The notes under the pieces were generated by a model that saw nothing but the letters and a program-made list of their open reading frames with translations, was not told where the DNA came from and did no database searches. A DNA stretch of 64,000 nucleotides from Escherichia phage vB_EcoM_G17: the sequence record MK327931.1; one strand, given 5' to 3'. The position numbers and the translations under genes are program-made. Positions 1 through 3,821 of the stretch are shown here, one piece after another. Position 1 is the first letter of the stretch; each line of letters begins with the position of its first letter.

Positions 1-170
1 ACTGCTAGAGTATAAAGAAGTAATTCATACATGTCGTAACTTGTTACATTACCATTTGGTGCAATTACATCAACACTAACACCGTGCATTTTTACTTCTG
101 TATTAAATCCATCTTTATCAGAAAGAAAATCAGTGATTTGCTTTGTAAGGATTTTAATTTGGTCTATCAT
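1..170 (-). CDS. hypothetical protein, N-terminal part only (gene runs off window start)
   Basis: ATG at 168-170 on minus strand preceded by AAGGAA Shine-Dalgarno; frame stays open to position 1; below ORF-track threshold. Confidence 0.35.
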   Translation of the reverse strand, partial: MIDQIKILTKQITDFLSDKDGFNTEVKMHGVSVDVIAPNGNVTSYDMYELLLYTLA

Positions 171-193
171 ATTTCATTTCCTTATGTGATAAA

Positions 194-212
194 AGCCTCC
201 ATAATGGAGGCT
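194..212. terminator. intergenic hairpin (agcctcc-ataat-ggaggct) with flanking T-run
   Basis: perfect 7-bp inverted repeat between two minus-strand genes. Confidence 0.4.
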
Positions 213-223
213 TTTGTATTTAC

Positions 224-805
224 TTAGAGAGATTCTTCGTATTCAGCAACAATCTCAACCATTTCATTAATGAACTTGATGTGAGAATGTGTCACTGTAC
301 GGAAGTCGTAAACAAGTGACTGTTGGAAAAATACATCTTCATCAAGAGAACCATCAAAGTTCAAATCAATGTTTTCATCGTCATTGCTTGGTGCAACTTT
401 AATATTCAGAAGATTTTCATCAATGAACTTGATGTGAGAATGTGTCACTGTACGGAAGTCGTAAACAAGTGACTGTTGGAAAAATACATCTTCATCAAGA
501 GAACCATCAAAGTTCAAATCAATGTTTTCATCGTCATTGCTTGGTGCAACTTTAATATTCAGAAGATTTTCATCAACTGCAAGTTTTACAACACAACCCA
601 GTGCAATGGCAAGAACATATGCTGGTTTCTTAGCTTTTTCATTACGGAATGGTGCACGTAGAGCACAAAAAGTACTGCTAATCTCATCATTTGGTTCTTT
701 GTATTTAACATTGACCATTAGTTCTTCGATTTTGACGCTCTCAATAACACGACCAGTTTCTGGAGCGAAGAAAGAATGTTCACGGATAGTTTGTTCGATA
801 TTCAT
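224..805 (-). CDS. hypothetical protein containing an exact 51-aa internal tandem duplication
   Basis: 193-aa ORF; residues DENLLNIKVAPSNDDENIDLNFDGSLDEDVFFQQSLVYDFRTVTHSHIKFI occur twice in tandem. Confidence 0.55.
   Translation of the reverse strand: MNIEQTIREHSFFAPETGRVIESVKIEELMVNVKYKEPNDEISSTFCALRAPFRNEKAKKPAYVLAIALGCVVKLAVDENLLNIKVAPSNDDENIDLNFDGSLDEDVFFQQSLVYDFRTVTHSHIKFIDENLLNIKVAPSNDDENIDLNFDGSLDEDVFFQQSLVYDFRTVTHSHIKFINEMVEIVAEYEESL
262..576. repeat. 153-bp direct tandem duplication (about 2 copies, 1 mismatch)
   Basis: sequence 269-421 is identical to 422-574; period 153 nt, in frame with CDS 224-805. Confidence 0.9.
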
Positions 806-808
806 ATA

Positions 809-1003
809 TTATTCCTTATTTAGATTGCTAAAAATACGAAGATTGCGGTTTGCTTTAAACTGTTTCAAATCACCAAATCTATCATCAACGATGAAAGTTG
901 CTGATTTCTTTGACTGACATATTGTACAAATCAACATACCTTGTATTGTATACTCAGTTGAGCAATTTGTACAGTACTTTTTTTCATAAAGTTCAGTACT
1001 CAT
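809..1003 (-). CDS. small Cys-rich (zinc-ribbon-like) protein
   Basis: 64-aa ORF with CxxC...CxxC spacing. Confidence 0.45.
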   Translation of the reverse strand: MSTELYEKKYCTNCSTEYTIQGMLICTICQSKKSATFIVDDRFGDLKQFKANRNLRIFSNLNKE

Positions 1004-1335
1004 AAAACCTTCACATCAGTACGTTTTTCTCTTTGTTCTTTTTTAACCTCATCAGTTCTAGTATCTTCTAATTGTAACACAACTTCTTTTAGAATGTCAA
1101 CATCAATTGTTGCTTCTACATATTGATAGTCGTTTACACCAAAAACATACTTTACTGCAACCCATACACGGTTATACCATTTTAAAAAAGGATTTAAACG
1201 CATACTTATCAGACATTGACCAAGTTTATCATCTCCATATTCCTCTGTCAAGTCAAATTGTGCAATGTGAACGCAATGCTCCATTTTATCGCCACAAGAA
1301 CAACGTAAAATATACTCTTTACTATCTTCACTCAT
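1000..1335 (-). CDS. hypothetical protein
   Basis: 111-aa ORF, tightly packed with neighbours (start/stop overlap). Confidence 0.5.
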   Translation of the reverse strand: MSEDSKEYILRCSCGDKMEHCVHIAQFDLTEEYGDDKLGQCLISMRLNPFLKWYNRVWVAVKYVFGVNDYQYVEATIDVDILKEVVLQLEDTRTDEVKKEQREKRTDVKVL

Positions 1336-1754
1336 ACTGGATAAGCCTTTAAAAATTGTTTAAGAACTCCAAACTTAGATGAATCGTAATCGTATTGATA
1401 GTTAAGCTCTCGCTTATCATTCATACGATACACCATATGAAAATTTGGATAACCAATTCTAACAGGTTTTTTAGGATTAGCAAGTAAAATTGCCCATTCT
1501 TTTACTGGAAATACGTTTTCAGTCAGCATTTTGATATTTGTTTCAAAATACTTCATGGCTTGCTTTCCGTGTTTGTAATCTTCTTCACTAATCTCTTGAC
1601 AATCAATTCTATGTGTTTCGGTATCTAACACCCATTGTTGATCTTCGGTATATAAATCAATTACATCATCAATAGTATAACTATCAGGTAAATCATAAAA
1701 TACCCAATGAGATAAACCAGAACTTACACCAATTCGAATTTTAAAGAACTTCAT
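1332..1754 (-). CDS. hypothetical protein
   Basis: 140-aa ORF, overlapping-stop packing typical of phage operons. Confidence 0.5.
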   Translation of the reverse strand: MKFFKIRIGVSSGLSHWVFYDLPDSYTIDDVIDLYTEDQQWVLDTETHRIDCQEISEEDYKHGKQAMKYFETNIKMLTENVFPVKEWAILLANPKKPVRIGYPNFHMVYRMNDKRELNYQYDYDSSKFGVLKQFLKAYPV

Positions 1755-1987
1755 TCTTTATCACCTTTTACATAATTATAACACACGACACAGTGAATTA
1801 CAAGAAGAATTATTTCCACAATGTTAAGAGACAATACATGACTCTGCGGTGTGAAAAGTGCCAATAACAACATTATAGCAGGTATTGTGAATATTTTCCA
1901 AGTTTTTTTCATTTTATTCCTTTGTATATGCATATGGTAAAAATAAAACCTCTGCATTAGGAATGCATTGTGCCAATCCTTCAACAA
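1751..1987 (-). CDS. small membrane protein
   Basis: 78-aa ORF with two hydrophobic segments. Confidence 0.4.
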   Translation of the reverse strand: MLKDWHNAFLMQRFYFYHMHIQRNKMKKTWKIFTIPAIMLLLALFTPQSHVLSLNIVEIILLVIHCVVCYNYVKGDKE

Positions 1988-2400
1988 TAGATTTGTTTTA
2001 TTACATTGCCAAACTTAGTAATTTTATGTCTAAATACTTTTTTATCAACGACAATCCAGTACATGTCCATTTTAACAGTACTGTTATCAGATGGTGTTAG
2101 TAAAGTATCGATGTCATATGTATCAAAGATTTGTCGTTCATATAATCTCCTAATAAAATATTCTCGATTCTCTCTTATATACCCAGATACACAGTTAGTT
2201 GTGGCTTGGTTAGTGAATGAAATCTCACTATTGGACACGCCATTTGCATCACACAAAGGACATATTCCCATGTACTTGGGGGTCGGGTAGGTGTCCAATT
2301 TGTATTTTTCATTACACACCATGTACTGCTGTGGCAATACATCTAATATTATTTCATATTCTTCATCAAACACCTTGAAGCATACCCAACATTTACCCAT
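1981..2400 (-). CDS. hypothetical Cys-containing protein
   Basis: 139-aa ORF. Confidence 0.5.
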   Translation of the reverse strand: MGKCWVCFKVFDEEYEIILDVLPQQYMVCNEKYKLDTYPTPKYMGICPLCDANGVSNSEISFTNQATTNCVSGYIRENREYFIRRLYERQIFDTYDIDTLLTPSDNSTVKMDMYWIVVDKKVFRHKITKFGNVIKQIYC

Positions 2401-2883
2401 TATAGTTTTCCTTTAACACCGTTCTTATATATTCGAATGTTTTAACAAACCAATCATGTTCGTCGGATACATCTACAACTTTACCACCATATACATAGTA
2501 ATGGTAAAAAGGTAACTTGCTTTTTCTTAATCTTTCGGCTAACTCTGGATTTTGAATTATCTTAGCACAAATAGCATCTTGAATAATAGAAATACAATCA
2601 TCCGTCATTTCAATTCGATCATGCATATATTGTTAGCGGCTGCTTTTGCTGCTGCACCAGATACTTTTCTAAGGTCATCATGTTTTTGCCCAGTTAAAAA
2701 CCAAAAGTAAAATGTTTCAACTGAAGGGAACCAACCATATGGTTCAAGTGTGAAGCTATGTGAAGAAAAGTTAGATAGATCTCTACCTAACTTAGTTCTA
2801 GCTTTACTATAAATGTTAATGTGTCGGTATCCATCATCAGTAGGGTCAATAAAGTCAAATGACTCTTCTGGAAACTCAAACAT
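2393..2883 (-). pseudogene. NADAR (YbiA-like) domain gene split into two overlapping ORFs by a frameshift
   Basis: ORF 2605-2883 matches the YbiA N-terminal motifs (LSNF...PYGWFPSVETFYFWF; compare E. coli YbiA FSNF...WPTSEHYFQAQKF); ORF 2393-2626 carries the AKIIQNPELAERL block (compare AKFEQHAELRALL); frames differ, stop at 2633-2635. Confidence 0.55.
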
Positions 2884-2885
2884 AA

Positions 2886-3122
2886 TTATTCTTCTTCTCC
2901 TGAAGGAGTTCCACGTAGTTTGTCAAAATCAACCCAAATACCATGCTGATTTTTAAATCTACATTTCTCATAGTACCAGCTATAGTCAGTTTCAACACCT
3001 TGTGATATAGATCTAACACTACAATCATACATATTATATAAATGATCCCTGACAATATACGTATTAATCAGAATAACAAACAATACAATAATACCACAGA
3101 CTTTAGGATGATCCATAATCAA
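2886..3122 (-). CDS. hypothetical protein with N-terminal hydrophobic segment
   Basis: 78-aa ORF. Confidence 0.4.
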   Translation of the reverse strand: MIMDHPKVCGIIVLFVILINTYIVRDHLYNMYDCSVRSISQGVETDYSWYYEKCRFKNQHGIWVDFDKLRGTPSGEEE

Positions 3123-3243
3123 ATCTAGAACGGAACTCGTTTCAGTACTGTCAATTTACTACGACCGATGGCAACAGCTTTCAGTACTGCTAATGATACC
3201 AGTAATGAAATAACAAGAACACTCAAATAAATTAGCATAATTA

Positions 3244-3821
3244 GACTCCTACACCAAAACGTAAAAGGATGTTATTAACAAACACAAAATCAAATGGAGA
3301 CTTTGGTTCAGATACCGAGTACTGAAAAGTTTCAGCGGAGAAACTTTCCCTATTGTGCCATGTTGATGAATCGATTAGTAATTGTTTATCACCAATTGAC
3401 GTTGAATGTAATGGAAAGTGTGCTGATGAATTTATGGAATACGCATTTAGTTTTCCTTGTTCATCTAATGTGATACTAAGATAATATTTTTTCTCAATAT
3501 CAGGAATAAGTTCTTTTGTATACGAATAGATTGAATCAACCCATTCATCATGTACATTTTCTGCACCAATCAGGTGTCCGAATGATAAATTACGTTTAAC
3601 TGGCTTTGATCCTGGTCGAGTTAGAATGAATTGTTTTGTTAAGTAAAAATTATTATGTTTACTTCAATATTAACATTTTTAAAATTCACAACTTTATCAT
3701 ATACATTTCGAAAAACTGTTATATCCCAAGTACTAATTTCATCCATAATACTTATCACCAGTTCTTCTAGTTCTTGGATAAATGGCAAATCATCCTGATG
3801 AAATCTAGTCATGGTTTTCAT
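3244..3821 (-). pseudogene. hypothetical gene apparently interrupted by a frameshift near 3640-3665
   Basis: 60-aa ORF 3639-3821 is followed by a 140-codon open frame (3244-3663) with no ATG/GTG/TTG start; an A5 run lies at the junction. Confidence 0.35.

What the first reader, a model, noticed from the sequence alone, without database searches (positions are those of the whole stretch)
262..576. Perfect 153-bp in-frame tandem duplication inside a coding gene
Positions 269-421 and 422-574 are identical, duplicating 51 amino acids of ORF 224-805. A perfect repeat of this length implies a very recent duplication or an assembly artefact.
Basis: seen in the sequence. Interest (0 to 1): 0.55.

Follow-up and report, generated by a model that had tools for sequence, protein, structure and literature searches.

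The report
Record-specific tandem duplication in phage G17
The perfect 153-bp in-frame duplication is really in the sequence, but only in this one database record (E. coli jumbo phage vB_EcoM_G17), beside six equally private gene-breaking one-base deletions, so it is most likely a local sequencing or assembly error, or at best a very recent private mutation.

Summary
Window 269-421 equals 422-574 exactly. This duplicates 51 codons (residues 78-128 and 129-179) of the minus-strand gene 224-805, giving 193 aa.

The window is phage vB_EcoM_G17 (MK327931), and the 193-aa product is deposited as G17_00226. All 21 close relatives have one copy (142 aa). So does phage Sharanji, which is identical to the window over 3659-64000 with no differences. 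The junction is absent from every collection searched.

The duplication lies at the left edge of a 3.4-kb patch (269-3658). That patch also holds six private single-T deletions that break five conserved genes. The window shows no substitution against Sharanji.

Seven indels and no substitutions in one short stretch point to a local sequence or assembly fault (about 0.57). The main evidence the other way is the junction. It lies on an 8/9-nt direct repeat (TTTCATnAA, chance about 0.003) at the centre of a 12-nt palindrome, as expected for real polymerase slippage. A real, very recent private duplication therefore keeps about 0.32.

Either way it is ordinary. The gene has no known function. PCR on the stock, or the raw reads, would settle it.

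The parts
224..805 (-). Gene G17_00226 (QBO61715.1), 193 aa here. Orthologues are 142-147 aa hypothetical proteins (PHROG 23322).
269..421 (.). Copy 1 of the 153-bp unit. On the minus strand it encodes residues 129-179.
422..574 (.). Copy 2 of the 153-bp unit, identical to copy 1. On the minus strand it encodes residues 78-128.
262..270 (.). Left-edge 9-mer TTTCATTAA. It lies inside a perfect 12-nt palindrome TTCATT|AATGAA (263-274), whose centre is the breakpoint.
415..423 (.). The new junction, TTTCATCAA followed by TGAACTT. This junction is not contiguous in any other record.
568..576 (.). Right-edge 9-mer TTTCATCAA. In the single-copy ancestor it lies exactly 153 nt from the left 9-mer and matches it at 8 of 9 positions.
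1996..1999 (.). T-run one base shorter than in Sharanji and 121Q (T5 to T4). It frameshifts the gp266 homologue.
2015..2016 (.). T-run one base shorter (T3 to T2), in the gp266 homologue.
2130..2132 (.). T-run one base shorter (T4 to T3), in the gp266/gp267 overlap. It makes the deposited 139-aa G17_00231, against 92-93 aa elsewhere.
2630..2631 (.). T-run one base shorter (T3 to T2). It splits the 163-aa gp268 homologue into G17_00233 (92 aa) and G17_00232 (71 aa).
3155..3157 (.). T-run one base shorter (T4 to T3). It frameshifts the gp269 homologue.
3658..3660 (.). T-run one base shorter (T4 to T3). It frameshifts the gp270 homologue. This is the last difference from Sharanji in the window.

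Best explanation
The duplication is a true property of the deposited sequence of Escherichia phage vB_EcoM_G17 (MK327931, gene G17_00226), but most likely not of the phage. It marks the left edge of a 3.4-kb stretch (window 269-3658) in which this record alone carries seven insertion/deletion differences and no substitutions. These are the 153-bp tandem duplication and six single-T deletions that break five conserved genes. The most likely cause is a local fault in building the consensus. One possibility is a stretch left at draft quality in a long-read assembly; another is a join or patch made when the contig was re-linearised, with 153 bp of overlap left in. Shown: the anomalies are private to this record, they cluster, and they are derived. 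Inferred: the technical cause. The paper says only that each phage was sequenced by either PacBio RSII/HGAP3 or MiSeq/SPAdes.
For: (1) The window is G17. The 193-aa product is QBO61715.1 (G17_00226) on a 370,817-bp contig, and the frameshifted ORFs are deposited as G17_00231, G17_00232 and G17_00233. (2) There is one copy in all 21 relatives at 99.6% identity or more: their 1,247-bp matches equal 1,400 minus 153, and the junction-spanning query splits into two pieces in every one. (3) The 142-aa form is on more than 160 contigs, the 193-aa form on one, and no gene with that product is in the contig index. (4) The junction 36-mer is absent from IMG/VR, JGI metagenomes and GTDB genomes. The wild-type boundary was found in IMG/VR as a positive control for that collection only. 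(5) Sharanji (OR545507.1, Illumina/SPAdes) is identical to window 3659-64000 with 0 mismatches and 0 gaps. It differs only by the duplication and six T deletions at 1996-3658. (6) Sharanji and G17 share protein alleles found on no other contig, so Sharanji acts as an independent re-sequencing of the same strain. (7) 121Q has the Sharanji state at all six sites, and the intact proteins occur on more than 150 and more than 250 contigs. (8) Seven upstream proteins are exact in G17, so the patch is bounded on the left by the duplication.
Against: The breakpoints fall on an 8/9-nt direct repeat spaced exactly 153 nt apart in the ancestor (TTTCATTAA / TTTCATCAA). Only about 0.3% of random breakpoints would do so. 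They also fall at the centre of a perfect 12-nt palindrome, of which there are 30 per 64 kb. That is the signature of polymerase slippage or template switching on real DNA, and an arbitrary mis-join would not produce it. Stated coverage is 203.6x, at which polished consensus errors should be rare. The deletions hit T3-T5 runs and spare the T6 and T7 runs, which is not the usual homopolymer-length bias. If G17 was assembled from MiSeq reads with SPAdes, the junction k-mers would need read support. The duplication is in frame.
Confidence: 0.57

Rival explanations
1. A real, very recent duplication in the G17 stock that was sequenced. During replication the nascent strand slipped, or the polymerase switched template, between the two TTTCATnAA 9-mers 153 nt apart. 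This produced an in-frame head-to-tail duplication that inserts 51 residues between an intact N-terminal part (1-77) and an intact C-terminal part of a dispensable accessory protein. On this reading the six T deletions are unrelated record errors.
For: Microhomology at both breakpoints, p about 0.003. Palindrome centre at the left breakpoint. In frame with no stop codon. Perfect identity fits a recent event. The rest of the record is of high quality, with 60 kb showing no difference from Sharanji.
Against: It is private to one record. It is absent from the same strain re-sequenced as Sharanji. It lies within 1.5 kb of the only error cluster in 64 kb, a coincidence of roughly 7% if the two are unrelated (own estimate). 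No homologue has a repeated module.
Confidence: 0.32
2. Both the duplication and the six frameshifts are real and arose together, in one tract of error-prone recombination-dependent (break-induced-like) DNA synthesis. The tract began with a microhomology-mediated template switch and ran in one direction through about 3.4 kb.
For: All seven changes lie in one 3.4-kb tract with the duplication at one end. All six are -1 changes in T-runs of the same strand, and there are no substitutions. From general knowledge, break-induced replication is frameshift-prone in homopolymer runs and is linked to microhomology-mediated template switches.
Against: Six frameshifts in 1.7 kb means about 9% of T-runs were hit. 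That is orders of magnitude above any reported in-vivo rate and matches raw-read error levels instead (own estimate). Five conserved genes would be lost in a viable phage. The preference for T-runs over A-runs is only modest, p about 0.03.
Confidence: 0.04
3. The duplication is real and shared by the G17/Sharanji strain, but the short-read SPAdes assembly of Sharanji collapsed it to one copy.
For: Sharanji was assembled from 2x151-nt reads with k up to 55, shorter than the 153-nt unit.
Against: Junction k-mers would still form a loop that SPAdes normally traverses (own knowledge). All 20 other relatives, assembled by many methods, have one copy. No contig in the gene index encodes the 193-aa product, whereas the 142-aa form is on more than 100 contigs.
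Confidence: 0.04

Closest known systems
Spontaneous tandem duplications between short direct repeats (slipped-strand mispairing or template switching), described classically for phage T4 rII and E. coli lacI. This comparison is from general knowledge and was not tested against those data here.
   Same: Head-to-tail copies without a spacer. The breakpoints lie on a short imperfect direct repeat (8/9 nt) present in the single-copy ancestor. The copies are perfectly identical. The unit is a multiple of three bases.
   Different: It is not shown to exist in the physical DNA. It is found in one database record only and sits beside six private frameshift deletions.
Residual overlaps and unpolished indels at joins or ends of long-read (for example HGAP) assemblies of circularly permuted or terminally redundant phage genomes. 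This comparison is from general knowledge.
   Same: A perfect tandem repeat lies at the edge of a few-kb stretch enriched in single-base homopolymer deletions, within an otherwise flawless record. The genome was re-linearised by the authors after assembly.
   Different: The technology used for G17 is not stated. The junction shows microhomology, which a plain trimming error would not explain. The deletions avoid the longest homopolymers.
PHROG 23322, a family of 142-aa hypothetical proteins of Asteriusvirus and related jumbo phages.
   Same: The gene matches this family at E = 1.2e-112, and its residues 1-130 align to profile positions 1-130.
   Different: All other members are 142-147 aa with a single copy of the segment. 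This one is 193 aa.

Membership tests
Microhomology-mediated (slippage) tandem duplication | Two head-to-tail copies with no spacer | tested here: met
   269-421 equals 422-574 exactly.
Microhomology-mediated (slippage) tandem duplication | A short direct repeat at the two breakpoints in the single-copy ancestor | tested here: met
   TTTCATTAA and TTTCATCAA lie 153 nt apart in Sharanji. About 0.3% of random breakpoints would lie in such a pair.
Microhomology-mediated (slippage) tandem duplication | The single-copy state is ancestral | tested here: met
   All 21 relatives have one copy, and all 11 homologue clusters are 142-147 aa.
Microhomology-mediated (slippage) tandem duplication | Two copies present in the physical DNA (spanning reads or PCR) | not testable with these tools
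   No reads for MK327931 are available here.
Sequence or assembly artefact | Private to one record and absent from independent data | tested here: met
   The junction is absent from 21 relatives, IMG/VR, JGI metagenomes and GTDB genomes. The 193-aa product is in one record only.
Sequence or assembly artefact | Absent when the same strain is sequenced independently | tested here: met
   Sharanji is identical over 60.3 kb and shares private alleles with G17, and it has one copy. Caveat: sameness of strain is inferred from sequence.
Sequence or assembly artefact | Co-located with other implausible, record-private differences | tested here: met
   Six single-T deletions within 3.1 kb break five conserved genes, and there is no substitution across the 64-kb window.
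Sequence or assembly artefact | Lack of read support, or position at a contig end or join | not testable with these tools
   Reads, assembly graph and per-phage technology are not available.
Proteins with a naturally repeated module | Homologues carry two or more copies of the segment | tested here: not met
   All homologues are 142-147 aa. There are no paralogues in the window or in 7 kb upstream.
PHROG 23322 | Significant full-length profile match | tested here: met
   E = 1.2e-112, matching two stretches because of the duplication.

The most novel reading that the evidence does not exclude
The duplication and the six -1 frameshifts are all real and record a single, strand-specific, one-directional tract of highly error-prone recombination-dependent DNA synthesis in a jumbo phage. 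The tract would have been started by a microhomology-mediated template switch at a palindrome. That would make it a natural snapshot of clustered mutagenesis of the break-induced-replication type.
Probability: 0.04. Interest if true: 0.55.

Novelty: not a real feature. Interest (0 to 1): 0.1.

Why it matters
This is mainly a data-quality point. GenBank record MK327931 probably carries one falsely elongated protein (QBO61715.1) and five broken genes (among them QBO61720-QBO61722) within a 3.4-kb stretch. These products have already entered protein databases as separate cluster members. Anyone using G17 as an Asteriusvirus reference should take the Sharanji or 121Q state here. If the duplication is real, it is an ordinary example of a small accessory phage protein growing by slippage between short repeats, with no known functional consequence. 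A side result may deserve attention: phages G17 (Germany, 2016) and Sharanji (India) appear to be the same strain.

Tried and rejected
1. Function of the gene. Pfam gave only sub-threshold noise, and NCBIfam and a PDB profile search gave nothing. PHROGs gave only families of unknown function.

2. Structure. AlphaFold2 on the orthologue with an 11-sequence alignment gave mean pLDDT 55, and below 50 across residues 56-120, which includes the duplicated segment. The 193-aa protein on its own gave pLDDT 32. Both are too poor for fold search, so none was run.

3. Paralogue array. jackhmmer of the 142-aa protein against all ORFs of the window and 7 kb upstream found only the gene itself. The extra PHROG hits to the C-terminal ~45 aa are therefore distant relatives elsewhere, not local paralogues.

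4. A ~500-nt spacing of the last four deletions (500, 525, 503 nt). This might have pointed to consensus chunking or primer walking. The probability is 0.01 if period 500 is fixed in advance, but 0.22 once other periods are allowed, so it is not used as evidence.

5. Strand bias of the deletions. All six are in T-runs and none in the 44 A-runs, which is only modestly unlikely (about 0.03).

6. The G17 record itself is not in the 'phages' collection, and complete E. coli genomes hold no match. The sequence upstream of the window could therefore be checked only at protein level.

7. The per-phage sequencing technology for G17 was sought in the paper and its supplement and is not given.

Full report
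OBSERVATION. Window 269-421 and 422-574 are identical, 153 nt each. The period-153 identity continues for two more bases, to 576. After a single mismatch (T268 against C421) six more bases match on the left. This is why Tandem Repeats Finder reports 262-576, 2.1 copies, 99% matches, score 623. No other exact repeat of 25 nt or more exists in the 64-kb window. The ORF 224-805 is real but lies on the minus strand (193 aa). The duplicated unit is 51 residues, at 78-128 and 129-179, in frame and without a stop codon.

WHERE THE WINDOW COMES FROM. The window is AT-rich (34% G+C) and packed with small minus-strand genes. It matches the ~350-kb E. coli jumbo phages of genus Asteriusvirus, such as 121Q, PBECO4 and slurp01. 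The exact 193-aa product is in public protein collections once only, as QBO61715.1, 'hypothetical protein G17_00226 [Escherichia phage vB_EcoM_G17]', on a 370,817-bp contig. Three other unusual ORFs of the window are also deposited G17 proteins. The window is therefore part of GenBank MK327931. That phage came from pig manure in Hameln in 2016, is held as DSM 103244, has a 20,649-bp terminal repeat and was sequenced at 203.6x coverage (PMC6563267). The record is not in the phage collection available here.

COMPARISON WITH RELATIVES.
- All 21 records at 99.6% identity or more match window 1-1400 over 1,247 bp, which is 1,400 minus 153.
- A 91-nt query across the new junction aligns in two separate pieces in every one of them.
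- The single-copy 142-aa protein forms occur on more than 160 contigs; the 193-aa form occurs on one.
- No gene with the 193-aa product is in the 153-billion-gene contig index.
- The junction 36-mer is absent from IMG/VR, JGI metagenomes and GTDB genomes. The wild-type boundary is found in IMG/VR, a positive control for that collection only.
- All 11 homologue clusters are 142-147 aa, and the PHROG 23322 profile is 142 positions long.
The single copy is therefore ancestral, and the duplication is private to the G17 record.

THE KEY NEW FINDING. The closest record is phage Sharanji (OR545507.1), from India, sequenced with Illumina 2x151 and assembled with SPAdes (PMC11895373). It is identical to window 3659-64000 with zero mismatches and zero gaps. 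Every difference lies in the first 3.7 kb. These differences are the duplication and six deletions of a single T in T3-T5 runs, at window 1996, 2015, 2130, 2630, 3155 and 3658. There is not one substitution.

Phage 121Q has the Sharanji state at all six sites. The deletions frameshift the homologues of Sharanji gp266 to gp270. For example:
- G17_00231 is 139 aa, against 92-93 aa on more than 150 contigs.
- A 163-aa protein found on more than 250 contigs is split into G17_00233 (92 aa) and G17_00232 (71 aa).
Seven proteins encoded in the 3.3 kb upstream of the window are exact in G17. The anomalous patch therefore runs from 269 to 3658, with the duplication at its left edge.

Of ten Sharanji proteins sampled about 70 kb and more away on either side of the window, nine are exact in G17. 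Five of those exist on exactly two contigs among about 15 billion proteins, namely G17 and Sharanji. The two phages are therefore effectively one strain, and Sharanji serves as an independent re-sequencing. It shows one copy and intact genes.

INTERPRETATION. Seven indels and no substitutions, confined to 3.4 of 64 kb, and knocking out five conserved genes, is not how phage lineages diverge. It is how a local consensus fault looks. The authors used either PacBio RSII/HGAP3 or MiSeq/SPAdes for each phage, and they re-linearised contigs at the physical ends. A stretch left at draft quality, or a join with 153 bp of overlap left in, would produce this picture. The technical cause is inference; the technology used for G17 is not stated. 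I put this explanation at 0.57.

EVIDENCE FOR A REAL EVENT. In the single-copy ancestor the two breakpoints lie on TTTCATTAA and TTTCATCAA, exactly 153 nt apart and matching at 8 of 9 positions. Only about 0.3% of random breakpoint pairs in this genome would lie in such a pair. The left breakpoint is also the exact centre of a perfect 12-nt palindrome, TTCATT|AATGAA, of which there are 30 in 64 kb. This is the signature of polymerase slippage or template switching, not of an arbitrary mis-join. An aligner forced onto a wrong diagonal could, however, also settle on the best local match. The duplication is in frame. Like any tandem duplication, it leaves an intact N-terminal part (1-77) and an intact C-terminal part (129-193, equal to wild-type 78-142). 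At 203.6x coverage, polished consensus errors should be rare, and the deletions spare the T6 and T7 runs. A real, very recent private duplication in the sequenced stock therefore keeps 0.32.

Two minor rivals get 0.04 each. The first is that all seven changes are real and arose in one error-prone, recombination-dependent synthesis tract. The implied rate, about 9% of T-runs hit, is far too high for any known in-vivo process. The second is that the repeat is real in the strain but was collapsed in Sharanji's short-read assembly. The 20 other single-copy relatives and the gene index argue against this.

THE GENE. G17_00226 belongs to PHROG 23322 (E = 1e-112), a narrow family of 142-147-aa proteins with no Pfam, NCBIfam or PDB relative and no local paralogues. 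Structure prediction failed to give a usable model. A 13-pair hairpin follows the stop codon directly. Nothing suggests that the extra 51 residues have a function.

VERDICT. The feature is private to one record. It is probably part of a 3.4-kb low-quality patch; otherwise it is an ordinary fresh slippage duplication. Interest is low. PCR on the stock, or the raw reads, would decide the question in a day.

Noticed in passing
window 1996-3660 (six T-runs: 1996-1999, 2015-2016, 2130-2132, 2630-2631, 3155-3157, 3658-3660): Six single-T deletions relative to Sharanji, 121Q and all other relatives. They frameshift five consecutive conserved genes, and the broken products are deposited as G17_00231 to G17_00233 and others. 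These are probably errors in GenBank MK327931.
   Followed up: yes
whole window; Sharanji OR545507.1 loci L004, L005, L007, L008: Phage Sharanji (India, chicken faeces) and G17 (Germany, pig manure, DSM 103244) look like the same strain. They show 60.3 kb with no difference, and five of ten sampled distant proteins occur on these two contigs only. The Sharanji laboratory bought another phage (Goslar) from DSMZ, the collection that holds G17. The origin of this identity may be worth checking.
   Followed up: partly
window 263-274: A perfect 12-nt palindrome, TTCATT|AATGAA, has its centre exactly at the left breakpoint of the duplication. There are 30 such palindromes in the 64-kb window.
   Followed up: partly
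window 189-217: A 13-pair hairpin (AAAAGCCTCC-ATAAT-GGAGGCTTTT) lies just past the stop codon (224-226) of the duplicated gene, with an A-tract on one side and a T-tract on the other. It looks like a bidirectional intrinsic terminator between this gene and the next.
   Followed up: no
window 2130, 2630, 3155, 3658: The last four deletions are spaced 500, 525 and 503 nt apart. This is suggestive of a 500-nt processing step, but it is not significant once other periods are allowed (p about 0.22).
   Followed up: yes
protein look-ups for genes of the window and of Sharanji: Many NCBI and Logan assemblies labelled 'Escherichia coli' contain 345-360-kb contigs of this phage genus, yet no RefSeq complete E. 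coli genome matches window 1-1400. This suggests frequent carriage or contamination of E. coli cultures by asteriusviruses in draft assemblies.
   Followed up: no
G17_00049 and G17_00662 (outside the window; equivalent to Sharanji gp097, 32.4 kb): The same protein is annotated twice in G17. This fits both copies of the 20.6-kb terminal repeat being included in the 370,817-bp record. After removing one repeat, G17 is 89 bp longer than Sharanji. The patch in this window adds 147 bp, so a net -58 bp of differences must lie elsewhere.
   Followed up: no
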